A stretch of 64,000 nucleotides of DNA from Bacteroidales bacterium (GTDB lineage: Bacteria > Bacteroidota > Bacteroidia > Bacteroidales > UBA3663): NCBI GenBank assembly GCA_045576355.1, contig JAZNGG010000015.1:9123-73122 (forward strand), read 5' to 3'. A program made the translations under genes and the position numbers. Numbering within the stretch: the stretch's first letter is position 1; each line of letters starts with the position of its first letter. Below are positions 2,122 through 63,587 of the stretch, one piece after another. The notes under the pieces were generated by a model. That model saw only the letters and a program-made list of their open reading frames with translations, was not told the DNA's origin and searched no databases.

Positions 2122-5100
2122 ATGTCAGCAAAAGCGTGGAAAGAACAGGTGACCATCCCCACCTATGAAGTGGGCAAACCTGAAAAGAATCCCATATTTC
2201 TGGAGAAACGTGTCTATCAAGGTTCGAGCGGAGTAGTCTATCCTTACCCCGTGATCGAGTCAATGAGCGACGAGCGGGTGGACAAGGAGTATGAAGCCAT
2301 CTATCTCGAAAACGAATATATCAAAGTGATGATCCTGCCCGAGCTGGGCGGTCGTGTCCAGATGGCATACGACAAGATCAAGCAGCGTCATTTCGTCTAT
2401 TATAATCATGTCATCAAGCCTGCCCTGGTCGGCTTGGCCGGCCCCTGGATCAGTGGCGGCATCGAGTTCAACTGGCCGCAACACCACCGTCCATCGACCT
2501 ACCTGCCCGTCGATACGACGATCGAAGAGCATGCCGATGGTTCGGTCACAGTCTGGATCAACGAAATGGAGCGGATGTTCCACCAGAAAGGGATGGCAGG
2601 GTTCACTCTCCGTCCCGGTTGTGCCTATCTGGAGATAGAGGGCAGGCTGAGTAACCGCACCTCCATGCCGCAGACCTTCCTTTGGTGGGCCAATCCTGCG
2701 GTTGAGGTCAACGACTATTATCAGAGTGTTTTCCCGCCGGATGTCAATGCCGTGTTTGATCACGGCAAGCGAGCCGTCAGCTCCTTCCCCATAGCGACAG
2801 GCACCTATTATAAGATGGACTATTCGGCTGGTGTCGATATCTCCAACTATAAAAACATCAAAGTCCCGACCTCCTACATGGGCGTTAACTCCAAGTATGA
2901 CTTTGAGGGAGGTTATGAGAATGACACCCACGGAGGCATGCTACACGTGGCAAGCCACCATTTCAGCCCCGGCAAGAAACAATGGACCTGGGGCAACGGC
3001 GACTTCGGTCGTGCCTGGGATCGTTGTCTCACCGACGATGACTATGAGGGTGCACCCGGCGTATTCCGCCCCTACATTGAACTGATGGCAGGCATATATA
3101 CCGAAAACCAACCCGACTTCACCTGGCTGATGCCTTATGAGGAGAAACAGTTTGTGCAGTACTTCATGCCCTACCGTGAGTTAGGCATCGTCAAGCAGGC
3201 GACCAGAGATTTTGTCTTCAACATCGAGCAGGCTGCAGCGGGGAAAGTCCGTATCATGGTGATGAGTACTTCTCGTCAGCAGGTATATCTCTCTTTGCGT
3301 CACAAGGATTTGACTCAGGAATTTTATCAGAAGCAACTTACCCTCACGCCCGAAGAGATTCTGGAGGAGGAGATCCATGTCGGAGAATGCACTCTCAACG
3401 ATCTTCACTTCACCATCTCCAAAGATTTTGAGGGACAAGAGAGACTCACCCCCTCGGCACACTATCCCTTCCACGGTCGTATCGTACTGGAGTGGTATGC
3501 CGAGCCGGACGAGATCCGTCCCATCCCCGATGCCGCCGAGGCAGCACTCACTCCGCAAGAGACCAAGACCATCGATCAGCTTTACCTGACCGGTCTGCAC
3601 CTCGAGCAATATCGTCACGCCACATGGTCGGCGCTCAATTATTATGAGGAGGCTCTCCGTCGCGACCCGTTGGACTATCGATGCAACAATCAGATCGGCT
3701 TGTGGTATCTCCGCCGCGGACGATTCGATAAGGCTGAACAATATCTGCGCACTGCGGTCAAAGTCTTGCAGAAGCGTAACCCCAACCCCTATGATGGCGA
3801 ACCGCTCTTCAATCTGGCACTCTGCTTAAAACACCAATTCAAGTTGCAAGAGGCTTACCACTGGTTTTGGAAATCGACATGGAACAAGGCCTGGGCAGAT
3901 GCCGGATACTTCGAAGCCGCCTGCATCAGTACCGGCCAGCGCCGCTATGAAGAGGCTCTCGACGAGGTGGAACGCGCACTCATCAGCAATGCTCGCAACC
4001 ACAAGGCACGCGCTCTTAAAGCGATCATCTTGCGCAAGATGGGACGCACCGACGAGGCTCTGACATGGATCCGCTCGTCTCTCGCAGTCGATCTCTTCAA
4101 CTATGTCTGCCGCTACGAGCAGTACCTCCTCACCCGAGATGAGACCTTGCTGGCAGAGTTGAAGCGACTCTTGCGCGGATCATGCCATAACTATGACGAG
4201 GTGGCATTAGACTATCGGCAGGCAGGACTCACCGATGAGGCTCAGGCCATCTGGCGCTTAGCCATCGAGGAGCAAGCCGTCAGCCCCATGACCTATTATT
4301 ATATGGGTGACTACGAGCAAGCTGAAAAGATCTCTCCGGACTATTGCTTCCCCAACTCCGTCGATGCCATCATCGCACTCACACTCGCCAAGGCATGCAA
4401 CCCACAAGGCGCTCGCGCACCCTATTATCTCGGATGTCTCTATTACGACAAGCGTCAGTATGACCTGGCACGCGACAATTGGGAACTCTCTGCTCGGCTC
4501 GACCCCGAGTTCCCCACCGTGTGGCGCAACCTGGCTCTCTATTATTACAACAAACAGAAGTGCCGCGACAAAGCGATCGACTGCATGGAGCGGGCATTCA
4601 GCCTCGACACCACAGACAGCCGCATCCTCATGGAGCTGGATCAACTCTACAAAGTGACCGGCAAGCCTCACGCAGAGCGACTCGAATTTTTGGAGCAATA
4701 CCCGGCACTCATCGCCGAACGCGACGATCTGCTGCTCGAACAGATCACTCTGCTCAATCAGCTCGGTCACTACCGCGAGGCTATGAACCTCCTCGACAGA
4801 CACATCTTCCATCCGTGGGAAGGTGGCGAAGGCAAGGTGCCGGCACAATATCAATTCTCCCGTGTGGAATGGGCGAAGCAGATATTAAAAGAGGAAAAAG
4901 GGAAAAAGCAGATCGATAAAGCAAAGATGGATCTGTGTCTGGACCTTCTCCTGGAGTGTTTCGACTACCCGCATCATTTGGGAGAAGGCAAACTGCTGGG
5001 GGCACAGGAAAATGACTTCTCATACTTCATGGGCCTTACCTACGAGTATCTGGATGACCTCCCGACCGCTCGCATCTATTGGGAGAATGCCACAGTAGGA

Positions 5101-5475
5101 TCCACCGAGCCGGCTGCTGCAATGTACTATAACGATGCCAAACCCGAAAAGATCTTCTATCAAGGCATGGCTCTGCGCAAGCTGGGACGCATCGATGAAG
5201 CCAACAGCCGTTTCCACAAGTTGGTCAACTACGGCAAACAGCACATCTTCGAACCACAGGTGATGGACTACTTTGCGGTCTCACTCCCCGACCTGCAGAT
5301 CTGGGATGGTGATCTCAACCTGAAAAACCGCATCCACTGCCTCTTCATGCTCGCCCTTGGCTACATGGGTCTCAATGAGATCCATAAGGCAGAGCGCTAT
5401 ATGAAAGAAGTGGAGCAACTGGACATCAATCACCAGGGGATACAAGCACTACGAACATTCATGGAGCAGTATTAG
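2122..5475 (+). CDS. DUF5107 domain protein with a long TPR-repeat C-terminal region (1117 aa)
   Basis: The N-terminus (IPTYEVGKPEKNPIFLEKRVYQGSSGVVYPYP ... LPELGGRV ... IKPALVGLAGPWISGGIEFNWPQHHR) matches my memory of the DUF5107 signature. The remainder is TPR-like helical repeats. It starts 24 nt after the GH43 stop and is probably co-transcribed. Confidence 0.75.
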   Translation: MSAKAWKEQVTIPTYEVGKPEKNPIFLEKRVYQGSSGVVYPYPVIESMSDERVDKEYEAIYLENEYIKVMILPELGGRVQMAYDKIKQRHFVYYNHVIKPALVGLAGPWISGGIEFNWPQHHRPSTYLPVDTTIEEHADGSVTVWINEMERMFHQKGMAGFTLRPGCAYLEIEGRLSNRTSMPQTFLWWANPAVEVNDYYQSVFPPDVNAVFDHGKRAVSSFPIATGTYYKMDYSAGVDISNYKNIKVPTSYMGVNSKYDFEGGYENDTHGGMLHVASHHFSPGKKQWTWGNGDFGRAWDRCLTDDDYEGAPGVFRPYIELMAGIYTENQPDFTWLMPYEEKQFVQYFMPYRELGIVKQATRDFVFNIEQAAAGKVRIMVMSTSRQQVYLSLRHKDLTQEFYQKQLTLTPEEILEEEIHVGECTLNDLHFTISKDFEGQERLTPSAHYPFHGRIVLEWYAEPDEIRPIPDAAEAALTPQETKTIDQLYLTGLHLEQYRHATWSALNYYEEALRRDPLDYRCNNQIGLWYLRRGRFDKAEQYLRTAVKVLQKRNPNPYDGEPLFNLALCLKHQFKLQEAYHWFWKSTWNKAWADAGYFEAACISTGQRRYEEALDEVERALISNARNHKARALKAIILRKMGRTDEALTWIRSSLAVDLFNYVCRYEQYLLTRDETLLAELKRLLRGSCHNYDEVALDYRQAGLTDEAQAIWRLAIEEQAVSPMTYYYMGDYEQAEKISPDYCFPNSVDAIIALTLAKACNPQGARAPYYLGCLYYDKRQYDLARDNWELSARLDPEFPTVWRNLALYYYNKQKCRDKAIDCMERAFSLDTTDSRILMELDQLYKVTGKPHAERLEFLEQYPALIAERDDLLLEQITLLNQLGHYREAMNLLDRHIFHPWEGGEGKVPAQYQFSRVEWAKQILKEEKGKKQIDKAKMDLCLDLLLECFDYPHHLGEGKLLGAQENDFSYFMGLTYEYLDDLPTARIYWENATVGSTEPAAAMYYNDAKPEKIFYQGMALRKLGRIDEANSRFHKLVNYGKQHIFEPQVMDYFAVSLPDLQIWDGDLNLKNRIHCLFMLALGYMGLNEIHKAERYMKEVEQLDINHQGIQALRTFMEQY

Positions 5476-5477
5476 TT

Positions 5478-5650
5478 GATGGGGACTTCGTCCTGCTATG
5501 GCTGATGGCGATGGCGCGATTGGTTTAAGGGTACCTTTTAGGCATTAAGGGCATCAAGGCCTTAAAATTATAATCCTCTGCCATCAGCCATAGCAGGACG
5601 CAACCCCTAAACCCTTAAACCCCTAAACCAACAAACCAACAAACCAAACG
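5478..5650. repeat. Mosaic intergenic repeat locus R1
   Basis: A perfect 20-bp inverted repeat, GTCCTGCTATGGCTGATGGC (5490-5509) and GCCATCAGCCATAGCAGGAC (5580-5599), surrounds a 70-bp spacer. It is followed by the heptamer run CCCTAAA/CCAACAA (5603-5648). The locus begins 3 nt after the upstream stop codon. Confidence 0.85.
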
Positions 5651-5670
5651 TTAAAAAACCTTTCCCCCTC

Positions 5671-5701
5671 TTGACATTGGCTTTCGGATGTTATATCTTT
5701 G
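5671..5701 (+). promoter_or_regulatory. Bacteroides-type promoter of candidate sRNA A
   Basis: TTGACA at 5671-5676 and a perfect -7 box TAtcTTTG at 5694-5701. The whole 45-bp block is conserved in copy B. Confidence 0.5.
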
Positions 5702-5707
5702 TAAAGT

Positions 5708-5787
5708 TTAAGTTGAAAGATAGATGAAGCGTTGAGACGTTGCAGGGCAGATCGCCCTACATGTTTCGATGCTTCATCGCTTTTTTG
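5708..5787 (+). ncRNA. Candidate small RNA A (about 80 nt) ending in a long hairpin plus U-tract
   Basis: Hairpin at 5723-5778 (GATGAAGC...GCTTCATC outer stem, GGGC/GCCC apical stem) followed by GCTTTTTTG. Several G-U pairs exist only on the + strand. A paralog lies at 19255-19356 (-). Confidence 0.4.
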
Positions 5788-5878
5788 TCTCCCTGCACTC
5801 GGCCGTTCGGATGAAAATTCAATGGTCCGAAAGAGTCCATTCATAGAGTTTATTTGCTTAAAAGGCCGAGGCTTTTTA

Positions 5879-6032
5879 CTTCACGAGCGTACCCTCATTA
5901 TTCAACGAGCGTACCCTCGTTGGTCGATGAGCGTACGCTCGTTGTGCAACGAGGCTACGCGTGTTAAAAATTAGCCCCGCCGCGTTACACTAAATAAGCC
6001 AATGAAAATCTCATGAGAGCCAATGCGTGAAA
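5879..6032. repeat. 22-bp-period minisatellite, array A
   Basis: Units are CTTCACGAGCGTACCCTCATTA, TTCAACGAGCGTACCCTCGTTG, GTCGATGAGCGTACGCTCGTTG and TGCAACGAGGCTACGCGTGTTA (5879-5966). About 3 decayed units follow. Confidence 0.85.
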
Positions 6033-6224
6033 ATTTTCTCTTTTTCAACTTTTAGCTCAGACTTTACTATGATTTTCACTTTATGTTCAGATCCCTATTC
6101 AAAAAATCATTAAGAGGCATCCATTGTGTTAGGCTTCATACCGAACTATATGCAAAATCGGATAAAATGATATACGAAGATGGCATTTACATGTTAATTT
6201 TCTAAAAAACGATAGCTCAGGGCT

Positions 6225-6492
6225 GCGAGTTGAGAAGAGTACAGAGAACAGAGTACAGAGAACAGAGAAGCCATAGCGGACGAAGTCCCTTATTTGGTTT
6301 AGAAGTTTAAAGGTTTAGAAGTTTATTTTTTCAACCCTTCAACCCTTCAACCACTAAACCAACCATAGCCATCAGCCATAGCAGGACGCAACCCCTAAAC
6401 CACTAAACCACTAAACCACTCAACCACTCAACCCCTAAACCAACCATAGCCATAGCCATCAGCCATAGCAGGGCGCAGCCCCTAAACCCCTC
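6225..6492. repeat. Mosaic intergenic repeat locus R2
   Basis: A GA-rich run is followed by CCATAGCGGACGAAGTCC, then GGTTTAGAAGTTTA twice, CAACCCTT twice, CCATAGCC/CCATCAGCC units and ACCACTAA/ACCACTCA runs. The same words recur at R3, R7 and R8. Confidence 0.85.
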
Positions 6493-6594
6493 AACCCAAA
6501 AAGAGCGGCATGCCGACATAAAATCGACACACCGCCCCGTCCCACGCTGTTAGGATATTATCTATACAAGACCCTCAAAGAGGTCCCGCACAAA

Positions 6595-6818: not shown

Positions 6819-9800
6819 TTACTTCACGAGCACCTTCTTACCGCCCACGATGTAGAGACCCGGAGCCTTCACTTGCTCCACCTTCTGACCCTGGAGGTTA
6901 TAGATGTCGGCGGCATGCTGCTCTGCTGTTACACCTTCAATACCGGTCTCAGCAGTAGCGATACGCACCTTCGGTGCTGCGGCAGCTGCCGGGAGCACGA
7001 GGAATGCCTTATTAGCCGGGATGTAGCTACCTGTGTACTGATAGAATGCGGTCTCGCTGTCGATGGTAGTGAGCGCATAGATCGAACCACTGAAGTTGGA
7101 TGCAGCCGTACGCACTGCCACACCACTGAGATCTGACTCAACAGCTTCAGTCTCCCCGGTATAAGCCACCATATCGTAACTACCAGGTTCACCGGCAAGC
7201 ACCACACCGGTCTGAGCCGGGATATAACCCTCAGTAAGTTCAACGAGGCTGAGATAATCAGCGGCGTCAGACAATGCACCAACGTATGCTGTCAAACCTG
7301 CAGGCACCGCCACAGCATGATTAGCATAGAAAGTAGAATATCCGCTTTCGTTGATGGTGAGCGTAATGTTCTCGATAGGCTCATAGCATACGGAAATCAG
7401 CAAATTGGCTTGAGTACCTCCCGTACATGCAAAATCTATAGTATTAACAGCATTCACATTCTTGATCAAAAGGTTGCAAGCAGAAGTCGCTGTTTTATCT
7501 GTCAGTACGAGAGACTCTGAGATGATGTTATTCACATAGTCTCCATCTGCATATACACCCTCGATGGTTACAGCTTCGTCATAGTTAGAGTTACCGACCA
7601 AGCGAATATGTTTCAATTTATAACCTGCGTTAGGAGTAATCCGGAAACCTTTCACCTCTCCGGCAGTCTGACCTGTACGGATCTTCAGACCATCTGAAAT
7701 GTTGTTTCCGCTCTCTCCTCCGGCAATATAAGCACCGGGCACGGTATATGAGGTTCCGACATTATCCTTATTCGTTTCACTACCGTTTTCCTTAGTTACT
7801 GTTTCCCAATCAGCTGTCGTTGGATATACTACCTTAACAAGACTGATATAACCGGCATCTCCACCCACTACTATAGTATTCTTTGCGTCAGTACCGGAAA
7901 TCGTATAGCTGATGGTCTTACCCGCAGCGTAATCGGTACTACCCTCGATGGTGGTAGAAGACAACTCGTTATAGGCTGTAATAGTAACTATTGCGCCTTG
8001 ACAAGAAGGGAAACTAAATATGGTACCATTATTCACCTGTGCCCACTCATCAGAGCGACCGATATTATAGATTTTACCATTGGTTCCATCCAAATCAAGT
8101 TTGAGATCCATAGTAACACCTTCCACAGACACCTGTGTCACAAGAATTCCTTTTTTACCTTGATAATTCAAAGCAGGAGCACCATTTTTAGGTCCGAAAT
8201 ACCAATTAGCAGTTATAGGTTCATAATCATGTTTTGCCAATGACACAGTATTTTCTGTAAATACCGGGGTCAATGTGACATCTTCTGTGATAGTTACTTT
8301 GGCACCTATATTATAGGTAGTATTTCCATCGGTCCAACCGGTCAAGGTGTATCCCTCTTTATAGAGAGTCTTATTAGTCGGGATGGTAACCTGACCTCCA
8401 TTATCAACATATTCTACTTCAGGCACGATCCCTTCTACAGACTCTACAGAACCTAAACCATAAGCAACAACCAACAACTTCTCAAAATTTGCAGTCAAAT
8501 TGACATTGGCAGAAAGAGAAGCAATCGCGTAAGTTGCATTTTCAGAGATTACATTAGACTCTGCATCTGTCCAATTGACAAATTTATAACCCGTATTGGC
8601 ATTGGCTGTAAATGATACTGCTGTACCCTCGTCAAAACTTGAGCCGGCAGGAGACTGTGTAATAGTTCCTGCTTCTGCAGGAGAAACAGAAGTTGTCACT
8701 GTGTACTGTGGCACCTCTATAATTGTTCCGGCATACTCTCCCTCGATTTTCACATTGGCAAAACCGACATGCTTTCCTGGATCCAGGTTATAAACATAAA
8801 CGGTCAGATAAAAATCATCTGAAATAGCCTCAAATCCGGTAATATCCAACTCGAATGAAACATCTCCGGCATCACCATTATTACGAATCGGCTTGACTCC
8901 GGTAGCCAACGTTTTAGAAACATCATCTCCGGCACTCACAACGATATCAAACAAACCACCTCCGGTGCCGAAACGACAAATATCGGCACTCACTTTCTTC
9001 GGTGTAAATGTCAATCCACTTTTCAAATCCACTGCCCAAGAAAAAGAATGTCCGTTGGTCTTTTTTGTAACTTTTGCAGATGGAGTAGCAGTAGTGAAGA
9101 CTACACTATTATAACCGGTCTGTGCTTTTTGACCGGACATCTCTGATCCAAGAGAGAAAGATGCAGTAGAAACGACATTATCTACTGACACTTCGTATGC
9201 AGGAGTTGTAGTACCCTCACTCATCGTCCATGAAACAGCTACACTGGTAGTCTCTTCAAAATTGGCGGTCAAGTTAATGTCTGCAGAAACATTATCAATA
9301 GTATAAGAAGCATCCGTAGAGACTTCATTACCCTCGCCGTCTGTCCAGTTTTGAAATGCATAACCGGATTTAGCAGAAGCATTGAGTGTTACAGAACCGC
9401 CCTCATACACTTCAGTCCCGTTGGCTGGAGTTACTACACCGGCATCAGCAGGGTTTACAGATGTCGTAATTGTGTACTTGGAAGCTGAAAGAGAGACTAA
9501 CTCTCCGGTCAATTGCAACTTTTCAGCGGCAAGATATTTAGAATTACTACCAGCATAATAATAATAGACCTTAACATTTATGGCTCCTGTCAAATTACTA
9601 ACAGAAAGGTTCTCCGTAAAAGTCGAATTAGAAATAGATGAATTATTATAATTAGATACTGTATAGCTTTTGGGAGTATTAATAGTAGTAGCAACATCAT
9701 CTACAACATTCTCTACAAGCACTTTATAAGTAAAATTATTACTAACTAAAAAAACGGAGTACAACTGTGAAAGGCTCAAAGAATAACCATCTGGCACATC

Positions 9801-10136
9801 TAAAGTGAATCCAAAATAAGCATCATCTTTAAATTCGGATAAATTACCTCCATCATATTGAGATCTGAAACAATAATCAGGAACAGTAAAACCTACCGCA
9901 GATGAAGTTATAGTATAAATACTTCCTTTATTGGTATTTTGACTTGCTTTTGCACCTTTAATAGCAGTCACCGTCACCAAATCATTCTCCGAAGAGAAAA
10001 CTGCTTCGCTTGCGGTTTTAGCAGAGGTATCCAAAGTACGGGTTATACCCATTTTGAAGCTCTCAGCATACGCACTTCCTATGCCAGCGATCATCATCAC
10101 GATCGCGAAGAACAAATTAAGTAATTGTTTTTTCAT
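6819..10136 (-). CDS. Large T9SS-secreted surface protein with InlB-B-repeat and Listeria-Bacteroides-type repeats
   Basis: Signal peptide MKKQLLNLFFAIVMMIAGIGSAYA. Two InlB-B-like modules (YTITTSVNPADAGVVTP...GYAFQNWTD and YTVTTSVSPAEAGTITQ...GYKFVNWTD) and GYTLTGWTDGNTTY. The C-terminus is a T9SS sorting domain (...IYNLQGQKVEQVKAPGLYIVGGKKVLVK). Confidence 0.8.
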   Translation of the reverse strand: MKKQLLNLFFAIVMMIAGIGSAYAESFKMGITRTLDTSAKTASEAVFSSENDLVTVTAIKGAKASQNTNKGSIYTITSSAVGFTVPDYCFRSQYDGGNLSEFKDDAYFGFTLDVPDGYSLSLSQLYSVFLVSNNFTYKVLVENVVDDVATTINTPKSYTVSNYNNSSISNSTFTENLSVSNLTGAINVKVYYYYAGSNSKYLAAEKLQLTGELVSLSASKYTITTSVNPADAGVVTPANGTEVYEGGSVTLNASAKSGYAFQNWTDGEGNEVSTDASYTIDNVSADINLTANFEETTSVAVSWTMSEGTTTPAYEVSVDNVVSTASFSLGSEMSGQKAQTGYNSVVFTTATPSAKVTKKTNGHSFSWAVDLKSGLTFTPKKVSADICRFGTGGGLFDIVVSAGDDVSKTLATGVKPIRNNGDAGDVSFELDITGFEAISDDFYLTVYVYNLDPGKHVGFANVKIEGEYAGTIIEVPQYTVTTSVSPAEAGTITQSPAGSSFDEGTAVSFTANANTGYKFVNWTDAESNVISENATYAIASLSANVNLTANFEKLLVVAYGLGSVESVEGIVPEVEYVDNGGQVTIPTNKTLYKEGYTLTGWTDGNTTYNIGAKVTITEDVTLTPVFTENTVSLAKHDYEPITANWYFGPKNGAPALNYQGKKGILVTQVSVEGVTMDLKLDLDGTNGKIYNIGRSDEWAQVNNGTIFSFPSCQGAIVTITAYNELSSTTIEGSTDYAAGKTISYTISGTDAKNTIVVGGDAGYISLVKVVYPTTADWETVTKENGSETNKDNVGTSYTVPGAYIAGGESGNNISDGLKIRTGQTAGEVKGFRITPNAGYKLKHIRLVGNSNYDEAVTIEGVYADGDYVNNIISESLVLTDKTATSACNLLIKNVNAVNTIDFACTGGTQANLLISVCYEPIENITLTINESGYSTFYANHAVAVPAGLTAYVGALSDAADYLSLVELTEGYIPAQTGVVLAGEPGSYDMVAYTGETEAVESDLSGVAVRTAASNFSGSIYALTTIDSETAFYQYTGSYIPANKAFLVLPAAAAAPKVRIATAETGIEGVTAEQHAADIYNLQGQKVEQVKAPGLYIVGGKKVLVK

Positions 10137-10380: not shown

Positions 10381-10548
10381 AAGTAAGAAAAAGAGCAAAG
10401 AGGAAACTGAAAACAAAGCCATAATCTATCGCCATCAGCCATAGCGGGCGCAGCCACAAGCCCTCGCCATAGCAGGACGAAGTCCCCCTGCCATAGCCAT
10501 AGCCATAAGCCATAGCGGGCGCAGCCCTTTAAACCCCTCAACCACCCC
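10381..10548. repeat. Mosaic intergenic repeat locus R3
   Basis: A GA-rich tract is followed by CCATCAGCCATAGCGGGCGCAGCC, CCATAGCAGGACGAAGTCC, CCATAGCC twice, CCATAGCGGGCGCAGCCC and finally TTAAACCCCTCAACC. Confidence 0.85.
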
Positions 10549-15913: not shown

Positions 15914-16170
15914 AGGGCTGATGGCTGCAATGGCTCATAGTGAGGGCTTATGGGGCTGCGCCCGCTATGGCTGATGGCGATAGCTTATAGCTTTGTTTTC
16001 ACCTTTCTCCTTTCCCCTTTCAGTTTTCTCCTTTCCTCTTATCAAGGCGCAGCCCCTTATCACGCGCAACCAACGACCAAAGAGAGTAACCCTTCAACCC
16101 CTCAGCCCCAAAACCCCTCAACTCCTAAAACCCTCAACTCCTAAACCAACAAACCAATAAACCAATAAAA
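15914..16170. repeat. Mosaic intergenic repeat locus R4 (two head-to-head modules)
   Basis: GGCTGATGGC/CTATGGC units and GGGGCTGCGCCC are followed by a CT-rich tract. Then come GGCGCAGCCCC, CGCGCAACCAACGACCAAAGAG and CCCTCAAC/CCTAAACC/CAACAAAC heptamer runs. Confidence 0.85.
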
Positions 16171-16225
16171 AAACTAAATTCTTGAATTTTTTTTGAGAAA
16201 CTCTTGCTATATTGTACAAAAGCAT

Positions 16226-17279: not shown

Positions 17280-17291
17280 TATTCACTGATA

Positions 17292-17333
17292 AAATAAACG
17301 GCAGCATCATCGAGATGCTGCCGTTTATTTTAT
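17292..17333 (+). terminator. Intrinsic terminator after rbr (17-bp stem plus T-run)
   Basis: AAATAAACGGCAGCATC, loop atcga, GATGCTGCCGTTTATTT, followed by TAT. Confidence 0.8.
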
Positions 17334-17334
17334 T

Positions 17335-17570
17335 GGTTTAGGAGTTGAGGGGTTGAGGAGTTTAGGGGCTGCGCCCCACTATGGCTGGGACTTCGTCCAC
17401 TATGACTGATGGCGATGGCTGGGGCAAAGCCCACTATGGCTGATGGCGATGGCTATGGCTTTCCACTTTTCGCTGTTCTCTTTTCTCTTGGAATATGGCG
17501 TTGTTTTCATCTTTCCTCTTTCCTCTTTTCTCTTTCCTCTGTACTGTCATATTTTTTTCTCACACAGAAA
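17335..17570. repeat. Mosaic intergenic repeat locus R5 (reverse orientation)
   Basis: GGTTTAGG/GTTGAGG heptamers, GGGGCTGCGCCCC, GGGACTTCGTCC, GGGGCAAAGCCC and CTATGGCTGATGGCGATGGC units, then a CT-rich tract and GTACTGTCATATTTTTTTCTCACACAGAA. It abuts the fmt stop codon. Confidence 0.85.
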
Positions 17571-17581
17571 TGCCAAGGCCT

Positions 17582-18895: not shown

Positions 18896-18991
18896 AAGTT
18901 TAAAAAATATTAACGCTCCATTGCCATCTCAGTTTGACAATTAAGGAGACGTCGGGCGAAGTTTTTAGGAAAAATGAAACAAGAAAAAATT

Positions 18992-19190
18992 TTCACTCAT
19001 CGGCTCGCGTAAGATCACGGATCGGCACGTGTTGTTTCACGCGTCGAGTCTCGTTACATAACGCGTCGAGTCTCGTTGCATAACACGTCGGCATGTGTTT
19101 AAACACGCGTAGCCTTGTTGCATGATTCGCGTAGCCTTGTTATGTCATGAGGGTAGCCTTGTTACGTCATGAGGGTAGCCACTTCAAACA
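18992..19190. repeat. 22-bp-period minisatellite, array B (about 8-9 units)
   Basis: The + strand units include TCACGCGTCGAGTCTCGTTACA, TAACGCGTCGAGTCTCGTTGCA, TAACACGTCGGCATGTGTTTAA, ACACGCGTAGCCTTGTTGCATG, ATTCGCGTAGCCTTGTTATGTC, ATGAGGGTAGCCTTGTTACGTC and ATGAGGGTAGCCACTTCAAACA. Confidence 0.85.
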
Positions 19191-19254
19191 CTTAAACCTA
19201 TGTTTTGTCTCACTCGAACCTATGAATTTTAGTGGGATAACAGAGTGTGAAGAC

Positions 19255-19356
19255 AAAAAAAAGATGAAGCATCGAAACATGGAGGGCGATTCACCCTATG
19301 ACGTCTCAACGCTTCATCGTTTACTACCCCTAAACTTGGGGTAATCACCAAAAATA
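19255..19356 (-). ncRNA. Candidate small RNA B (about 100 nt), paralog of candidate A
   Basis: Read on the minus strand: hairpin 19318-19263 (GATGAAGCGTTGAGACGTCATAGGGTGAATCGCCCTCCATGTTTCGATGCTTCATC) followed by T8 (19262-19255). The 5' segment differs from copy A. Confidence 0.4.
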
Positions 19357-19361
19357 TAATA

Positions 19362-19392
19362 CAAAGATACAACAATCAAAAGCCGATGTCAA
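19362..19392 (-). promoter_or_regulatory. Bacteroides-type promoter of candidate sRNA B
   Basis: Read on the minus strand: TTGACA (19392-19387) and TAtcTTTG (19369-19362). The block is nearly identical to 5671-5701. Confidence 0.5.
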
Positions 19393-19575
19393 GAGGGGAA
19401 AAGTTTTTTTAACAATTCGGTGCTGCGGCGAAAGAACAGAGAACAGAGGAAAGAGGAAAGATGAAAGGAGAAAGGAGAAAACGGATAGCCATAGTGGACG
19501 AAGTCCCTAAGCCATCTGCCATCGCCAATAGCCATAGTGGGCTTTGCCCCAGCAATAGCGGAGAATGATTTGGTA

Positions 19576-19728
19576 TTTTTGCACACAGAAGACACAGAAC
19601 CCGCGTAGCACACGACCGAAGGAAATAACACACAGAGCGCACATGTTTCGCAGTGCTTCCCTTCCGGATGGTAAACGCAAGCGTAAGCGTGCGTTTTCTG
19701 TGTATTTTATGTATTCTGTGTGCAAAAA
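19576..19728. repeat. 153-bp unit bounded by 15-bp inverted repeats
   Basis: TTTTTGCACACAGAA (19576-19590) pairs with TTCTGTGTGCAAAAA (19714-19728). An internal hairpin ACGCAAGC-GTAA-GCGTGCGT is present. Confidence 0.75.
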
Positions 19729-19833
19729 AAATGACAGTACAAAGAAAAGAGAAAAGAGAAAAGAGGAAAGGAGAAAACAAAGCAATCTGCCATAGTGGGC
19801 TTTGCCCCAGCAATAGCGGAGAATGACTTGGTA

Positions 19834-20018
19834 TTTTTGCACACAGAAAACACAGAACCCGCGTAGCCCACGACCAAAGGGAGTAAGACACAGACCACGC
19901 GTAGCACACGACCGAAGGAAATAACACACAGAGCGCACATGTTTCGCAGTGCTTCCATTCCGGATGGTAAACGCAAGCGTAAGCGTGCGTTTTCTGTGTA
20001 TTTTGTGTATTCTGTGTG
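19834..20018. repeat. Second inverted-repeat-bounded unit (with a roughly 30-bp internal duplication)
   Basis: TTTTTGCACACAGAA (19834-19848) pairs with TTCTGTGTG (20010-20018). The CGCGTAGCxCACGACCxAAG word is duplicated inside. Confidence 0.7.
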
Positions 20019-20400
20019 AGACAAAAACTGTAGAAGACGGCTTTAAGGGCTAAAAAAGGCAAAAAGGGCAAAAAGGCATCCAACCAACCGCATAGTAATA
20101 ACAAGAGTACAGAGAAAAGTGAAAGGAGAAAGGAGAAAGGAGAAAACAAAGCCATCTGCCATCGCCATCAGCCATAGTGGGGCGCAGCCCCTAAACTCCT
20201 CAACCCCTAAACCCCTAAACCAAACAGGGCGCAGCCCTAAACTCCTCAACCAACCACAAATCATTTTCAGTAAATATACACATTTTATGCGCCATAAATA
20301 TAAATTTCATACGTTTTCTGTATCTTTTTCCCATTATTTTGCTATTTTACCAAAAATTCTGCTTATTTTTGCGCCATTGATTAAAAAACTTTATGATGCT

Positions 20401-22108: not shown

Positions 22109-23164
22109 ATGAAACAGATGCAGATTCATAATAGCACAGATATTATTGCCGATATTAAGCAGATTATCGATCAAGCGAGAAAACAAGCATACACTTCGAT
22201 TAACACATTGATGATACAATCGAATTGGTTGGTGGGTCGTCGTATTGTGGAGGAAGAACAAGGTGGAGCTTCACGAGCTGAATATGGCAAGGCTCTGCTG
22301 AAGAATCTTGCCACCGAGTTGATGCCGATATACGGCAATTCATATTCAGCCCGTCGCTTGCAGGATTATCGTCAATTCTATCTTTATTGCAAGGATATAG
22401 AGAATTGGCACACGCGAGTGCCAAATCTTACTTGGACACATTATCGTGAATTGCTTACGGTTAGCGATGAGACTGCTCGTCAATGGTATATGCAGGAGGC
22501 AGCCAAAGAAATGTGGAGCGTCCGCACTCTTCACCGCAATATATCATCGCAATACTATTATCGTTTGTTGCAATCGCAAACAAAGGATGTGGTAATCGAT
22601 GAGATGAAACAGATTACAGCACCTATGCAGGGTGACAAGTTGGAGTTTATCAAGAATCCTGTTGTTGCAGAGTTTTTAGGGCTGGCTCCGAATACAAAAT
22701 TCTCTGAAACTGAATTGGAGAGTGCCATAATCACCCATCTTCAGAAATTCATTATGGAATTGGGGAAAGGTTATGCCTTTGTTGCTCGTCAACAACATAT
22801 CCGAACAGATATGGGCGACTTCTATATCGACCTCGTGTTCTACAACTACATTCTCAAATGCTTTATGCTTGTTGATTTGAAAACAGAGCAAATAAGTCAT
22901 CAAGATGTAGGGCAGATGGACATGTATATCAGAATGTACGATGAGTTGAAACGAACGGAGGGCGATAATCCGACAATCGGACTTATCCTTTGCTCTCGTA
23001 CAAGTGAGGATATGGCACGATACTCTATGCTTAAAGATAATGATCGATTGTTTCAAGCAAAATATCTCACATTCTTGCCAACAAAAGAGGAATTGACAAA
23101 TGAGATTGAGCGTCAAAAAATGATATTCAGATTGCAGCAAGAAAATGACACTCCCGAAGAATAA
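22109..23164 (+). CDS. PDDEXK nuclease domain protein, YhcG/DUF1016 family
   Basis: The N-terminal helical domain (NWLVGRRIVEEEQGGASRAEYGKALLKNLA...YRQFY) and the C-terminal PD-(D/E)xK core (FYIDLVFYNYILKCFMLVDLKTEQISHQDVGQMDMYI) are typical of DUF1016. Confidence 0.8.
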   Translation: MKQMQIHNSTDIIADIKQIIDQARKQAYTSINTLMIQSNWLVGRRIVEEEQGGASRAEYGKALLKNLATELMPIYGNSYSARRLQDYRQFYLYCKDIENWHTRVPNLTWTHYRELLTVSDETARQWYMQEAAKEMWSVRTLHRNISSQYYYRLLQSQTKDVVIDEMKQITAPMQGDKLEFIKNPVVAEFLGLAPNTKFSETELESAIITHLQKFIMELGKGYAFVARQQHIRTDMGDFYIDLVFYNYILKCFMLVDLKTEQISHQDVGQMDMYIRMYDELKRTEGDNPTIGLILCSRTSEDMARYSMLKDNDRLFQAKYLTFLPTKEELTNEIERQKMIFRLQQENDTPEE

Positions 23165-24381: not shown

Positions 24382-27090
24382 TCAAAAAAATCGCCACCAG
24401 TCAAGGCGGACATCGCCTTCTGCTTGATCGATACAGAGATATAGGTCATGTACCCCTTGAGCACCTTGAATCTTGGTTTTGAATGAGCGATATTTCTCCA
24501 CACTGCCGGTAGGCTTGAGCAGAACAGTTCCCACGACCGGACCCTCCGGACTATCGAGCCGCACGGTCAATGTGGCAGAACCTGTACCTGCAGCAGAAAG
24601 GGAAAATCGCTTGGCTCCCGTTCCGAAATCGACACCGCGCAAACGGATGTATTCGTTCGGGTCAAGATCATAGATATACATATTTTTCTTTCCCTCAGAG
24701 AAGGGCATCTGTTCCACAATGCCCGTATTATCAAATCCGACTTTAGCACTCTTCAAGCCGTATCCCCAGTTCATCGTCTCAGCCTCTACCCGACGGTATG
24801 GGTCGAAGGTGTGGAGCTGTTCGGCCGGCTGCTGATCGAGCCAATAAGGGAGTTCGGCGATGGTGCCATCGGGATTGTACTTCATCTCGGTAAAAGTGAC
24901 CGAACGACGCTCATAATGGCGCAAGATGTCGATATTCTTCAAGTCATAGTTCTGCCCGAAAAGATAAGTACGTCCCTTGAAATCGGCGATACCGGGATGA
25001 TTGCCGCGAGTGCGCGGAGTGTGATCCATGATGTGACCTTTATGTTCCCAGGGGCCTGTGGGGCTCTGGCTCATGGCATAACCAATACCCTCCGGACAAC
25101 AAGTGGAGGCAAAAGCCATGTAGTAGTAATCACCTCGTTTATAACACCAAGGTCCCTCCTGATAGTCCGGGATGCGAGGCAACTTAACGATGTCGCCCAC
25201 CGTAGAGATCATATCCTCCCCGAGTTTGACATAGTAGGTATTAGGATTACCCCAGTACATATAGGCCTGTCCGTCATCGTCGATAAAGACAGTGGGATCG
25301 ATATCATCCCAATGTTCGCGTTGCCAAACGAGCGGTTTGCCGAGCGGATCCTTATAAGGTCCATAGGGAGAGTCTGCAACGAGAACACCGATACCATGCC
25401 CATGCAGAGGAGCATAGAGATAATATTTGCCATTGCGAGAGACGGTTTGGATCGCCCAAGCACCATTGTCCCGACTGCGCCAGGCAAAGTCTTTGAGCGA
25501 GGCTATCGCACCATGTTCTGTCCAATTGACCATATCGGTAGTGGAATAGAGCAACCAGTCATACATAAAGAAACCCGCCGAACTGCGCTCATTCGGGTCG
25601 GCGATGTCTTCGGGAGAGGAGTCATGAGAGGTGAAGAGGAAAAGAGTATCCCCCACGACCAACGGAGAAGGATCGGCGGTGAATTTGGTCTGCGTAAACG
25701 GCATATTGGCTTGCTCCACGCCACGCATCTCCCACCAGTCGAAATTCATCAAGTGGGGTCCCTTACGACCGGTAAAGCAGAGATAGAGGTCATGCACACC
25801 TGTAACCTTAGTCTTGATGTCTGCCACCAAAGTCTGCCAATTCTCCCATCCTCCTGTACCGGGCACATCAAGACGGGTGAGCAACTCGCCTTTCAGACTG
25901 TCCACACGCACCTCGATGGCACCTCCACGCAGACCACTTGCCACACGGGCAGTAAATGTGCGGGGCAACATACGACCGAAATCCACGGCTTGCAACTTGA
26001 TGTAGTCCCCATTATGCGCATCGGTGACATAGACTCCGATCTCATCGTTTTGCTCGGTCTTCAATCCTCGAGAGAAAGCCATCGTCTCTGCCTCGACACG
26101 GCGATAAGGACAGAATGTCCCGACAGGTTTCACTCCGGCATCGGTGGGATGAATCGTGGGGAATGATCCATCAGGGTTATAGGTAAACTCCTCGATGGCT
26201 ACACTACGACCGAAACCGCCTCCTCCGGGCAACTTGCCGGTGTGATAGAAAAAGTAGCTATGCCCTTTATAATCTGCCACTCCGGCATGATTGGTAAACG
26301 AACCTGTATTGCCCAAAGGCATAATCTCTCCGGCGTATTTCCACGGACCGGTCGGGGAGGTCGCTGTGCTGTAAGAGATGTGTTCCGGCACCCCTCCGGC
26401 AGCATAGATGAGCTGGTAAGTGCCGTTGCGCTTGGTGAGCCAGGGACCTTCGACATAGCAGTCCTTGTACTTCTTGCCCTGCTCGCGGTTCTTCATCAGC
26501 GGAGCACCAAAAGCCTCCTCGGTCATGTCGGCAACGATGAGGTCTCCCTCATAGGAGATCATATCCTCGTTGAGTTTGAGATAATAGAGCTGCGGATTGC
26601 CCCAGCACACCCATGCCTGTCCATCGTCATCGATAAAGACACTGGGGTCGATGTGGTCCCATGAACCATTTTCATATAGAGGCTTCCCGATGGCATCGCG
26701 GAACGGGCCCGTCGGCGAATCCCCCACTGCCACACCAATCGCCATACCTCCGGAGAGTTTGGAGTGGGCGCAGATGTACCAATAGAACTTGCCGTTGCGC
26801 TCGATCGCCTGTGCCGCCCAGGCACGATCATCTGCCCATGAGAAAGACTCAAGGGCCAAAGGCGAACCATGGTCGAGCCAATTGACCATATCGTCAGACG
26901 AGTAGATACGCCACTCCTGCATCCAGAAGAAGTCTGCCCCATCTTCATCATGACCGGTATAGACATACATACGTCCGTCATGCACCAGCGGAGCGGGGTC
27001 TGTGGTGAAACAAGTCTGCACGATTGGATTTTGTGCGAAACCCTGCAGGACAAAAGTCAGAAGCAGGGATAAAAGAGATATCTTTTTCAT
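24382..27090 (-). CDS. Tandem GH43 glycoside hydrolase with two CBM6-like modules
   Basis: Signal peptide. Two GH43 modules (NPIVQTCFTTDPAPLVHDGRMYVYTGHD and FTADPSPLVVGDTLFLFTSHD). Each is followed by a CBM6-like module (YRRVEAETM...GDYIKLQAVDFG and YRRVEAETMNW...YIRLRGVDFG). Confidence 0.85.
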   Translation of the reverse strand: MKKISLLSLLLTFVLQGFAQNPIVQTCFTTDPAPLVHDGRMYVYTGHDEDGADFFWMQEWRIYSSDDMVNWLDHGSPLALESFSWADDRAWAAQAIERNGKFYWYICAHSKLSGGMAIGVAVGDSPTGPFRDAIGKPLYENGSWDHIDPSVFIDDDGQAWVCWGNPQLYYLKLNEDMISYEGDLIVADMTEEAFGAPLMKNREQGKKYKDCYVEGPWLTKRNGTYQLIYAAGGVPEHISYSTATSPTGPWKYAGEIMPLGNTGSFTNHAGVADYKGHSYFFYHTGKLPGGGGFGRSVAIEEFTYNPDGSFPTIHPTDAGVKPVGTFCPYRRVEAETMAFSRGLKTEQNDEIGVYVTDAHNGDYIKLQAVDFGRMLPRTFTARVASGLRGGAIEVRVDSLKGELLTRLDVPGTGGWENWQTLVADIKTKVTGVHDLYLCFTGRKGPHLMNFDWWEMRGVEQANMPFTQTKFTADPSPLVVGDTLFLFTSHDSSPEDIADPNERSSAGFFMYDWLLYSTTDMVNWTEHGAIASLKDFAWRSRDNGAWAIQTVSRNGKYYLYAPLHGHGIGVLVADSPYGPYKDPLGKPLVWQREHWDDIDPTVFIDDDGQAYMYWGNPNTYYVKLGEDMISTVGDIVKLPRIPDYQEGPWCYKRGDYYYMAFASTCCPEGIGYAMSQSPTGPWEHKGHIMDHTPRTRGNHPGIADFKGRTYLFGQNYDLKNIDILRHYERRSVTFTEMKYNPDGTIAELPYWLDQQPAEQLHTFDPYRRVEAETMNWGYGLKSAKVGFDNTGIVEQMPFSEGKKNMYIYDLDPNEYIRLRGVDFGTGAKRFSLSAAGTGSATLTVRLDSPEGPVVGTVLLKPTGSVEKYRSFKTKIQGAQGVHDLYLCIDQAEGDVRLDWWRFF

Positions 27091-31917: not shown

Positions 31918-31998
31918 CGTTTTTATCTTGGAAAAAAGAAGTTTCTCTCTCTCTTTTCTCTCCCATGAGAGCCTTTCTCTCACCGTTCTGTCAGCCTA

Positions 31999-32086
31999 TA
32001 CACATTACACGGCAGCGTCATACACGTTACACGGCGGCGTCGTGCAAGTCACACGGCGGCATCATGCAAATACATTTCCGAAACAT
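31999..32086. repeat. 22-bp-period minisatellite, array D (different unit sequence)
   Basis: Units are TACACATTACACGGCAGCGTCA, TACACGTTACACGGCGGCGTCG, TGCAAGTCACACGGCGGCATCA and a decayed TGCAAATACATTTCCGAAACAT. The array is preceded by a CT-rich tract. Confidence 0.8.
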
Positions 32087-33538: not shown

Positions 33539-33582
33539 TAAATATAAAAATAAAAAGAAGGCGTAAACTATTCGATACTCGC

Positions 33583-33706
33583 CTTTGCTTAAGGTTACCG
33601 CCAAGTGACCACGTTTACGACAAGCACGAACAGCCCACACCTAAGTGTGAACTTACTTCGCTGCTTATTCTCGTAAACTGAATGATTGGCGGTATTCAAA
33701 GCAAAG
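33583..33706. repeat. 124-nt rod-like near-perfect palindrome
   Basis: Nested helices: CTTTGCTT/AAGCAAAG, TACCGCCAA/TTGGCGGTA, GTTTACGA/TCGTAAAC, AAGCACGAA/TTCG(C)TGCTT, and CACAC-ctaa-GTGTG. There are no G-U pairs, so the strand is undetermined. Confidence 0.75.
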
Positions 33707-47559: not shown

Positions 47560-47815
47560 TAATTTATTTTTGATATGACAATTCTTTAGTGCAACTTTTT
47601 TCATTTTCACTATTAAAAAAGCCCCTTTCACCCTGATAACAGAACGTTTTTATTATCATAACCTACCGGTGTCCGACAAAACTTTTCTCTGTAATATAAA
47701 GGTTATTTCGTGCACTTAATTTTTTGAGGCACCTCATTTCTCCTCTTTTTTCACCCTCTCTGATACGCGAAAAAAAGTTATTTTTGGGTTTAAGCTGAAG
47801 AGCTGTGACCTTCTG

Positions 47816-47947
47816 CTTCACGAGGGTACGCTCATGACGCAACGAGGGTACGCTCGTGAGGCAATGAGGCTACGCTCGTGATACAACGAGGGTACGCTCG
47901 TGAGGCGATGAGGCTACGCGCGTTATTCAACGGGACTCTTGACAAAT
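47816..47947. repeat. 22-bp-period minisatellite, array C (cleanest copy)
   Basis: Units are CTTCACGAGGGTACGCTCATGA, CGCAACGAGGGTACGCTCGTGA, GGCAATGAGGCTACGCTCGTGA, TACAACGAGGGTACGCTCGTGA, GGCGATGAGGCTACGCGCGTTA and one decayed unit. Confidence 0.85.
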
Positions 47948-63562: not shown

Positions 63563-63587
63563 ACAAAACCAATTACTACTATACACG

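What the first reader, a model, noticed from the sequence alone, without database searches (positions are those of the whole stretch)
5650..6053. Roughly 400-bp dispersed composite element: sRNA module, spacer and 22-bp minisatellite (2 full copies and 1 decayed copy)
Copy A (5650-6053, +) and copy B (18970-19413, -) share the same parts in the same order.
- They begin with the left end GTTAAAAAAC.
- Next come the promoter, hairpin and T-run.
- A partly conserved spacer of about 85 bp follows (...AAAATTCA...GGTTTAAG...).
- A 22-bp tandem array comes next.
- They end at GAGCCRATGNGTGAAAATTTT.

A decayed copy at about 47700-47947 keeps the T-run context (CTCATTTCTCCTCTTTTTTCACCCTCTCTG), the GGTTTAAGCTGAAG word and a clean array, but has lost the promoter and hairpin.

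The architecture (unique flanks, an internal minisatellite and an internal promoter) is reminiscent of the minisatellite-containing MITE described in Porphyromonas gingivalis as BrickBuilt. That comparison is from memory, and sequence relatedness is untested. The ends are only weakly inverted (GTTAAAAAAC versus GTTGAAAAAG), and I cannot see target-site duplications.
Basis: partly seen in the sequence, partly recalled or inferred. Interest (0 to 1): 0.6.

Follow-up and report, generated by a model that had tools for sequence, protein, structure and literature searches.

The report
Repeated small-RNA cassette with minisatellite
Two intergenic regions of this uncultured gut Bacteroidales genome carry the same non-coding unit, a promoter, a hairpin-terminated small-RNA gene, a 22-bp tandem array and a tail; its parts recur many times in related genomes, but it lacks the hallmarks of a classical transposable element.

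Summary
Copies A (5650 to about 6046, +) and B (19416-18905, -) are real. They share five parts in the same order and orientation:
- a 54-57 nt promoter module;
- a 56-nt hairpin followed by a T-run;
- a spacer;
- a 22-bp array;
- a tail.

The claimed decayed copy C (47819-47934) is only another 22-bp array. Its flanks match A and B no better than shuffled sequence.

The parts are multi-copy in related metagenome genomes, as depth over single-copy depth:

| Part | Copies |
|---|---|
| Promoter | about 11-28 |
| Hairpin | about 7-25 |
| Array units | about 20-60 |
| Tail | 2-10 |

The left end is sharp and the same in eight runs. At least one further contig carries hairpin, spacer and array in the same order.

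The array varies in unit number: another strain has one extra unit in copy B.

I found no terminal inverted repeats above chance, no target-site duplication, no BrickBuilt/IS5 end sequence and no transposase in the window. The modules also occur apart.

Best reading: a lineage-restricted family of paralogous small-RNA genes embedded in a modular intergenic repeat mosaic that includes a 22-bp minisatellite. It resembles BrickBuilt and BOX in architecture but is not a member of either.

Transcription is predicted, not shown. The element is absent from the GTDB species-representative genomes, JGI metagenomes, IMG/VR, phage and plasmid collections, and from Rfam.

The parts
5650..5703 (+). Copy A promoter module P (GTTAAAAAACC...TATCTTTGTA). 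It has TTGACA at 5671-5676 and the Bacteroidetes-type -7 box TATCTTTG at 5694-5701.
   Evidence: It is 87% identical to B. The sigma-70-type scan gives 10/12 with a 17-nt spacer. Depth is 11-14x the single-copy level in X1, with a sharp left end at 5650 in 8 runs.
5704..5722 (+). Copy A variable 5' leader of the predicted small RNA.
   Evidence: It is only 34% identical to B. Depth drops to about 3x here. A second breakpoint lies at 5714-5723, with different upstream sequences in other copies.
5723..5790 (+). Copy A hairpin H (56 nt: an 18-bp lower stem, an internal loop and a 5-bp apical stem) followed by GCTTTTTTGTCT. Predicted to be the body and intrinsic terminator of a small RNA of about 80 nt.
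   Evidence: The fold is -38.6 kcal/mol, z = -7.3, against -27.4 for the antisense strand. The covariance model scores 95 bits sense and 46 antisense. Depth is about 7-10x.
5791..5882 (+). Copy A spacer S.
   Evidence: Local similarity to B's spacer was reached by 0 of 500 shuffles. Three contigs in X1, each with 11-15% differences, cover it (summed depth about 4x), and each spans into the array.
5883..5972 (+). Copy A 22-bp minisatellite R: 4 units of AACGAGSSTACSCTCRT plus 5-6 nt. The last unit is degenerate and ends GCGTGTTAAAAATT.
   Evidence: TRF reports period 22 and 3.2 copies. The unit family is shared with B, C and L014. Depth is 20-30x.
5973..6046 (+). Copy A tail T, with the conserved core GAGCCAATGCGTGAAAATTTTCTCTTTTTC at 6017-6046.
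   Evidence: The core occurs only in A and B in the window. Tail similarity was reached by 0 of 500 shuffles. Depth is 2-4x and falls to single copy at 6047.
19360..19416 (-). Copy B promoter module P, including the ATT that precedes GTTAAAAAAAC.
   Evidence: Depth is 22-30x, with sharp ends at 19413-19416 and 19360-19362. It lies inside long contigs of otherwise unlike sequence, 9 and 13 kb.
19319..19359 (-). Copy B leader, with an extra small hairpin (UUACCCC/GGGGUAG).
   Evidence: The B-type leader is at 6-9x in X15-18.
19251..19318 (-). Copy B hairpin H plus a T-run of 8.
   Evidence: The fold is -45.9 kcal/mol, z = -8.2, against -27.7 antisense. The covariance model scores 103 bits.
19181..19250 (-). 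Copy B spacer S.
   Evidence: It is about single copy in X15-18.
19028..19180 (-). Copy B arrays: B1 at 19103-19180 (AACAAGGCTACCCTCATGACRT) and B2 at 19028-19102 (AACGAGACTCGACGCGTTATGY).
   Evidence: TRF reports period 22 twice. Units are shown in register. Strain L041 has one extra B2 unit. B2 is at 30-60x in X15-18.
18905..19027 (-). Copy B tail T, with the core GAGCCGATGAGTGAAAATTTTTTCTTGTTTC. The B-type tail continues to 18905.
   Evidence: Depth is 4-10x, with a sharp end at 18905 in X15-18.
47819..47934 (+). Array-only member of the 22-bp family (5 units). It is not a copy of the composite.
   Evidence: Flanks are at chance similarity. It is conserved in place in other strains.

Best explanation
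The unit is one frequent arrangement of modules in a lineage-specific, non-coding intergenic repeat mosaic.

**Its core is a small-RNA gene.**
- The conserved promoter module has TTGACA, a 17-nt spacer and TATCTT. These overlap the Bacteroidetes CTTG...TAtcTTTG arrangement.
- The promoter drives a transcript of about 80 nt in A and about 100 nt in B.
- The transcript has a variable 5' leader and a constant 56-nt hairpin. The hairpin with its following U-run acts as an intrinsic terminator.
- The gene is present in several to tens of paralogous copies per genome.

**Downstream parts.** In the same orientation lie a loosely conserved spacer, a 22-bp minisatellite of short palindromic units (ACGAG-N6-CTCGT), and a tail. 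The minisatellite gains and loses units by slippage.

**How it spreads (inferred).** Duplication and recombination among the surrounding mosaic repeats seem more likely than cut-and-paste transposition.

**Shown:** the anatomy, copy multiplicity, consistent ends, unit-number variation and strand asymmetry of folding.

**Inferred:** transcription, termination, any regulatory role of the RNA, and the way the unit spreads.
For: **Anatomy and conservation**
- The promoter and hairpin are each 87% identical between A and B, while everything else is 34-52%.
- Both promoters score 10/12 in the sigma-70 scan and carry TATCTTTG.

**Folding points to an RNA read from the promoter strand**
- The hairpin folds at z = -7 to -8.
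- It is 11-18 kcal/mol more stable on the promoter strand than on the opposite strand, because of four G-U pairs.
- The covariance model scores 95 and 103 bits sense against 46 and 40 antisense.
- A T-run follows the hairpin on that strand only.
- Variation among copies is confined to the apical part. It includes 5748 C>T together with 5754 G>A at a predicted pair.

**Multiplicity and ends**
- Depth ratios and sharp common ends were seen in eight metagenome runs.
- Contigs span hairpin, spacer and array.

**Modularity**
- The promoter module sits alone inside 9-kb and 13-kb contigs.
- Arrays stand alone at C and in L014.
- The hairpin occurs with other upstream sequences.

**Array instability.** Strain L041 has one extra unit in copy B.

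**No protein-coding signal**
- The open frames differ in length and start between A and B.
- No homologues were found in 5.8 billion proteins.
Against: - No RNA evidence. Three metatranscriptomes and one probable RNA run cover mscL, fur and rubrerythrin of this organism at depth 3-9. They hold no contig on the hairpin, spacer, array or tail.
- This is weak evidence. Coverage is low, and small structured RNAs are poorly captured by such libraries.
- Copy numbers come from the k-mer depth of metagenome contigs. Several related species may be mixed in, so some 'copies' could be orthologous loci of co-resident relatives.
- Sharp, reproducible ends fit an insertion mechanism better than plain recombination.
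- The lower 18-bp stem is invariant, so it gives no covariation support.
Confidence: 0.6

Rival explanations
1. It is a non-autonomous transposable element (a MITE in the BrickBuilt sense). A transposase encoded elsewhere in the genome would move it, and it has captured a minisatellite and carries an internal promoter.
For: - It is multi-copy, intergenic and lacks coding capacity.
- The left end is sharp and reproducible, and the B-type right end is sharp at 18905.
- Copy B's unique parts are missing from X1, X2 and X5.
- It has a leader-array-tail architecture like BrickBuilt.
Against: - Inverted ends are at chance: 144, 832 and 311 of 1000 shuffles did as well.
- No target-site duplication was found.
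- The BrickBuilt/IS5 end motif is absent from the ends.
- The window holds no transposase.
- The modules occur separately and at different copy numbers.
- The absence of B in X1, X2 and X5 is not a clean empty site. Their fmt gene is only about 87% identical, so they are another species.
Confidence: 0.15
2. It is simply two or a few paralogous small-RNA genes made by segmental duplication. They happen to lie next to members of an unrelated, much commoner 22-bp array family, so the 'composite' has no unity of its own.
For: - Arrays are far more numerous than hairpins and occur without them.
- The spacer and tail are poorly conserved, at 52%.
Against: - The spacer and tail are significantly similar between A and B, in the same order and orientation.
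- Further contigs join hairpin, spacer and array.
- The B-type tail next to the array is itself at 4-10x.
Confidence: 0.15
3. The promoter plus hairpin is a cis-acting leader or attenuator. It would control read-through into a downstream gene, fmt in copy B, rather than being a free-standing small RNA.
For: Copy B lies upstream of fmt in the same orientation, about 330 nt from its start.
Against: - Copy A lies between two convergent genes, with no gene downstream in its orientation.
- Arrays and a tail lie between the terminator and fmt.
- Rfam finds no known leader.
Confidence: 0.05

Closest known systems
BrickBuilt, the minisatellite-containing MITE of Porphyromonas gingivalis (PMC4596501)
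   Same: - It is found in Bacteroidales, is strictly intergenic and has no coding capacity.
- It has the same layout: a non-repetitive leader, an internal tandem array of about 22-23 nt units with variable number, then a non-repetitive tail.
- It has promoter activity inside the element.
- It has roughly 10-20 copies, with partial forms lacking leader or tail.
   Different: - BrickBuilt has 23-nt units, IS5-type terminal inverted repeats (GAGACCTTTGCA/TGCAAAGGTCTC) matching ISPg1, and short flanking duplications at 3 of the 4 copies that keep both ends.
- Here the units are 22 nt. The ends are not inverted repeats, that motif is absent and there is no duplication.
- Here the leader is a complete promoter-hairpin-terminator gene.
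- BrickBuilt is restricted to P. gingivalis and P. gulae.
FopS, the 14-member paralogous sRNA family of Bacteroides thetaiotaomicron (PMC11697453)
   Same: - Both are multi-copy small-RNA genes in Bacteroidales.
- Each has its own canonical promoter and intrinsic terminator.
- Both are under about 100 nt (FopS 65-70 nt; here about 80-100 nt predicted).
- Both are mostly intergenic.
   Different: - FopS members share a conserved 5' seed, GTGTTTTTCATAGTATTAG. It is absent here.
- This family keeps the 3' hairpin constant and varies the 5' leader.
- No link of FopS to minisatellites is described in the parts of that paper read here.
- FopS expression and targets are shown by experiment. Here neither is shown.
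Pneumococcal BOX elements and E. coli BIMEs (modular intergenic mosaic repeats; from general knowledge, not tested here)
   Same: - Both are built from modules that combine in different numbers and orders.
- BOX has an internal module repeated in tandem (boxB).
- Both sit in intergenic regions, are predicted to form stable RNA structures, and have no transposase of their own.
   Different: - There is no sequence relationship.
- BOX ends (boxA/boxC) and REP units are defined palindromes.
- Neither carries a complete promoter-to-terminator RNA gene.

Membership tests
BrickBuilt (P. gingivalis MITE) | Tandem internal repeat of 23 nt | tested here: not met
   All arrays have period 22. The BrickBuilt unit is 23 nt. 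The unit sequence is published only as a logo, so no sequence comparison was possible.
BrickBuilt (P. gingivalis MITE) | IS5-type terminal inverted repeats GAGACCTTTGCA / TGCAAAGGTCTC | tested here: not met
   With up to 2 mismatches there are 5 hits in the window against 5.8 expected, and none at the element ends.
BrickBuilt (P. gingivalis MITE) | Leader and tail sequences homologous to those of BrickBuilt | not testable with these tools
   No P. gingivalis sequence is held. The paper reports BLAST hits only in P. gingivalis and P. gulae.
BrickBuilt (P. gingivalis MITE) | Exclusively intergenic, multi-copy, with full and partial forms | tested here: met
   A, B and C and the L014 array are all intergenic. 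Multi-copy depth is shown.
MITE (general) | Terminal inverted repeats | tested here: not met
   The left end scored against the reverse complement of the right end is at chance in A and in B, for both candidate right ends.
MITE (general) | Target-site duplication flanking the element | tested here: not met
   The flanks of A and B share no direct repeat at the mapped ends.
MITE (general) | Precise presence/absence (filled and empty sites) between strains | tested here: inconclusive
   - The same-species contig L041 has B in place.
- The runs lacking B are a different species.
- L029 lacks the C array, but only 28 nt are held.
MITE (general) | A related autonomous IS with matching ends in the same genome | not testable with these tools
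   Only 64 kb of the genome is available, and it holds no transposase.
FopS sRNA family | Conserved 5' seed R1' (GTGTTTTTCATAGTATTAG) | tested here: not met
   There are 0 matches with up to 3 mismatches. The seed sequence was taken from the oligonucleotide list.
FopS sRNA family | Multi-copy genes, each with its own Bacteroidetes promoter and intrinsic terminator | tested here: met
   
Free-standing bacterial sRNA gene | A detectable transcript with a defined 5' end and 3' end | tested here: inconclusive
   No RNA contig lies on the hairpin in four RNA runs, but coverage of the organism is only 3-9x on rubrerythrin.
Any Rfam family | A match to a curated covariance model | tested here: not met
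   There is no hit at gathering score in the window. At the A locus only chance-level hits appear, and at B none.

The most novel reading that the evidence does not exclude
The promoter-leader-hairpin units could be a family of guide-like RNAs. A constant 3' scaffold would be bound by one protein, and exchangeable 5' leaders would give target specificity. The adjoining arrays of 16-bp palindromes spaced every 22 bp would be a binding platform for a dimeric DNA-binding protein. The whole unit would spread by a mechanism that leaves neither inverted ends nor target duplications.
Probability: 0.07. Interest if true: 0.7.

Novelty: new variant of a known kind. Interest (0 to 1): 0.38.

Why it matters
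- Multi-copy small RNAs are only beginning to be described in gut Bacteroidales; FopS is the main example. This would add an unrelated family with the opposite design, a constant hairpin and a variable leader, in an uncultured and poorly sampled lineage.
- It would tie an sRNA family physically to a variable-number repeat and to a dense intergenic repeat mosaic.
- Such repeats break short-read assemblies: the Logan contigs end at them.
- They mark a point where gene order differs between strains.
- They offer strain-typing markers.
- As far as shown here, the unit has no medical or applied significance.

Tried and rejected
**Collection scans**
- Genome contigs (GTDB species-representative genomes) and JGI metagenome-contig scans with the invariant 18-mer of the hairpin gave 13 and 8 hits. 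All lie in unrelated contexts, about the number expected by chance (my own estimate). The one Bacteroidales hit, L007, lies inside continuous hslU-like (my reading) coding sequence.
- Three IMG/VR scans (promoter core, 3' arm, double array unit) gave only chance hits or none.
- blastn of copy A against the plasmid and phage collections found no match.

**Other searches**
- I searched the protein database for spurious ORFs translated across the hairpin, as a way to find other copies. Nothing was found.
- Rfam gave nothing.
- A covariance model of the hairpin, run with filters off, finds only A and B in the window. The remaining hits look like generic terminators.

**Empty sites**
- X1, X2 and X5 lack B, but they turned out to be a different species, with fmt about 87% identical.
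- L029 is too short to decide.
- The tatC-side contigs show the C array in place in the other strains.

**RNA evidence**
- No RNA run is indexed for the element itself.
- Runs found through rubrerythrin give no signal on the element at low coverage.

**Ideas rejected**
- parS-like or iteron readings of the arrays were considered. Only a half-site resemblance exists (CGTGAAACA in B), so I did not pursue them.

Full report
**Setting**

The window is from a member of the Bacteroidales.
- It encodes a hybrid two-component sensor, GH43, GH31, pectinases, DUF5107, RNase Y, TatAC and fumarate reductase.
- GC content is about 48%.
- Promoters are of the TAnnTTTG type.
- Its fmt protein has one relative at 93% identity, and all others are at 80% or less. 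The few that carry a source name are called 'Bacteroidales bacterium' MAGs. The lineage is therefore thinly sampled.
- The DNA runs that hold it are mostly gut, faecal and wildlife metagenomes.

**The observation: copies A and B**

Copy A lies between two convergent genes (2122-5475 + and 6819-10136 -). Copy B lies on the minus strand upstream of fmt. The alignment shows the same parts in the same order and orientation.

Module by module, A and B compare as follows.

| Module | Identity |
|---|---|
| Promoter | 87% |
| Leader | 34% |
| Hairpin plus T-run | 87% |
| Spacer | 52% |
| Array | 45% |
| Tail | 52% |

- The local similarity of spacer and tail was reached by none of 500 shuffles.
- Three diagnostic words occur exactly twice in 64 kb, where 0.00-0.02 are expected.

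**The observation: copy C**

The third 'decayed' copy is not confirmed.
- Region 47819-47934 is a clean array of the same unit family.
- Its flanks score at chance against the A/B spacer and tail.
It belongs to the upstream region of a zapB-like gene.

**Anatomy of the left part**

Both copies carry TTGACA, a 17-nt spacer and TATCTT, scoring 10 of 12. This overlaps the Bacteroidetes -7 box TATCTTTG, with CTTG 20 nt upstream.

About 20-40 nt further on lies a 56-nt hairpin. It has an 18-bp lower stem, a small internal loop and a 5-6 bp apical stem. A run of 6-8 T follows.

Three results point to an RNA read from the promoter rather than a DNA palindrome.
- The hairpin folds at -38.6 and -45.9 kcal/mol (z = -7.3 and -8.2).
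- On the opposite strand it reaches only -27.4 and -27.7, because four pairs are G-U.
- A covariance model scores 95-103 bits sense and 40-46 bits antisense, and finds no third copy in the window.

The predicted product is an RNA of about 80 nt (A) or 100 nt (B). Its 5' leader differs between copies, and B has a 22-nt insertion that forms a second small hairpin.

There is no coding signal.
- Frames across the region differ in length and start.
- They have no homologues in the protein database.

Rfam has nothing.

**Anatomy of the right part**

All arrays are built from one 22-nt unit family: AACGAGSSTACSCTCRT plus 5-6 variable nt. This holds for A, B1, B2, C and one in strain L014.
- Each unit holds a 5-bp inverted repeat around a 6-nt core.
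- Each array ends in the same degenerate unit...TACGCGYGTTAWWAA. The arrays therefore have a polarity, and it is the same relative to the RNA gene in A and B.
- The array is unstable in unit number. A contig from another sample (L041) is 98.8% identical over 2 kb and carries copy B with one extra B2 unit, one more T in the T-run and one base change in the stem.

**Copies elsewhere: collection searches**

Exact-pattern scans of the GTDB species-representative genomes, the JGI metagenomes and IMG/VR gave only chance matches. So did blastn against the plasmid and phage collections.

**Copies elsewhere: metagenome depth**

I laid assembled contigs of eight metagenome runs on A and B at 80% identity or more. 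The table gives depth relative to the local single-copy level.

| Module | X1, laid on A (single copy = 24) | X15-18, laid on B (single copy = 5-17) |
|---|---|---|
| Promoter | 11-14x | 22-28x |
| Leader | about 3x | 6-9x (B-type) |
| Hairpin | about 7x | 10-25x |
| Spacer | about 4x | about 1x |
| Array | 20-30x | 30-60x (B2) |
| Tail | 2-4x, single copy from 6047 | 4-10x, sharp end at 18905 |

- The left end is at the same base in all eight runs, with different sequences upstream. Most of those end in ATT.
- Several contigs run from hairpin through spacer into the array.
- One contig, 651 nt in X16 and 2885 nt in X18, carries the hairpin, then 97 nt, then the last array unit.
It is not met: the unit is dispersed.

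**The unit is modular, not one indivisible element**

- The promoter module sits alone, with sharp ends on both sides, inside 9-kb and 13-kb contigs.
- The hairpin is found behind other upstream sequences.
- Arrays stand alone at C and downstream of rubrerythrin in strain L014.
- The whole unit is usually embedded among other, far commoner short repeats: hexamer, heptamer and octamer runs and GC hairpins. These reach 50-100x depth.

**Tests for a transposable element**

- Inverted ends are at chance in both copies.
- There is no flanking duplication.
- The 12-nt BrickBuilt/IS5 end is at chance frequency and never at the ends.
- The window holds no transposase.
- Clean filled and empty sites could not be obtained.
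  - The runs that lack B belong to another species, with fmt about 87% identical.
  - The one contig that lacks the C array holds only 28 nt beyond the junction.

**Transcription**

No RNA run is indexed for the element. Three metatranscriptomes and one probable RNA run were found through rubrerythrin. They cover mscL, fur and rbr at depth 3-9 but hold nothing on the hairpin, spacer, array or tail. Only a few low-depth pieces of the promoter module appear. At this coverage, and with libraries not made for small RNAs, the result is inconclusive.

**Comparison with known systems**

*BrickBuilt.* The architecture is the same: leader, tandem array of variable length, tail, internal promoter, intergenic position and tens of copies in a Bacteroidales genome. 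Every defining feature that could be tested fails: unit length, IS5-type ends and host range.

*FopS.* Function is probably closest to this paralogous sRNA family of Bacteroides. The FopS 5' seed is absent. The design is also reversed, with a constant 3' hairpin and a variable 5' leader.

*BOX and BIME.* These repeats resemble it as modular mosaics. This comparison is from general knowledge only.

**Verdict**

The unit is a real, lineage-restricted, multi-copy non-coding unit. It is best read as a paralogous small-RNA gene cassette joined to a 22-bp variable-number repeat within a modular intergenic mosaic. It is a new variant of known kinds of bacterial repeats and is of moderate interest. 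It is neither a BrickBuilt relative nor a demonstrated MITE.

Noticed in passing
window 5470-5650, 6230-6540, 10390-10545, 15945-16175, 17325-17560, 19430-20230, 61975-62155, 63360-63570: A very abundant intergenic repeat mosaic. It combines runs of hexamers (CCATAG/CCATCG), heptamers (GAGAAAG, AGAGAAC) and octamers (AACCCCTA, AAACCAAC) around short GC hairpins (GGGGCTGCGCCCC, GGGACTTCGTCC), in both orientations. Depth in metagenome X1 reaches 600-2000 against a single-copy level of 21-24. Copies A and B both abut such blocks.
   Followed up: partly
window 19531-20027: A tandem duplication with a period of about 258-296 bp (143 nt at 95%, 106 nt at 93%) lies between copy B and the acetyl-CoA hydrolase gene. 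The long ORFs listed here (19409-20155, 248 aa, and others) are made of repeats and are probably spurious.
   Followed up: no
window 31998-32069 and 58201-58253: Two further tandem arrays of period 22 have different unit sequences (ACACGGCGGCGTCATGCAAGTC, and a weak AT-rich one). The first lies just upstream of the GH31 gene's promoter region, and its reverse complement faintly resembles the B2 units. Period 22 recurs in this genome.
   Followed up: partly
L014 1196-1730 versus window 17280-17580: In a strain 98% identical over fur-rubrerythrin, the gene after the repeat block is a GH43 gene instead of fmt. The intergenic region there carries a 4-unit 22-bp array that is absent at this site in the window. 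A gene-order breakpoint between strains therefore lies in the repeat mosaic.
   Followed up: partly
window 6182-6208 and L014 1587-1613: The motif GGCATTT-N4-GTTAATTTTCTAAAAA follows the array region in both loci, at different distances, and precedes a simple-repeat block. It loosely resembles the tail core GAGCCRATGNGTGAAAATTTT. It may be a boundary motif of the mosaic.
   Followed up: partly
L029 1-28 versus window about 47800: One strain's contig diverges from all others exactly at the inner edge of the C array flank (...CTCTTCAGCTTAAACCC). The 28 nt beyond match nothing in the window. This could be absence or replacement of the array in that strain.
   Followed up: partly
window 24382-27090: The 902-aa product has an internal duplication, with two GH43 and two CBM6 segments. 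At the DNA level it shows as 123 nt at 75% identity with a spacing of 1350.
   Followed up: no
window 22109-23164 and 32303-33640: Two low-GC islands (38-40%) were seen. One holds a YhcG/DUF1016 PDDEXK nuclease gene. The other holds a 445-aa ORF with no Pfam match.
   Followed up: no
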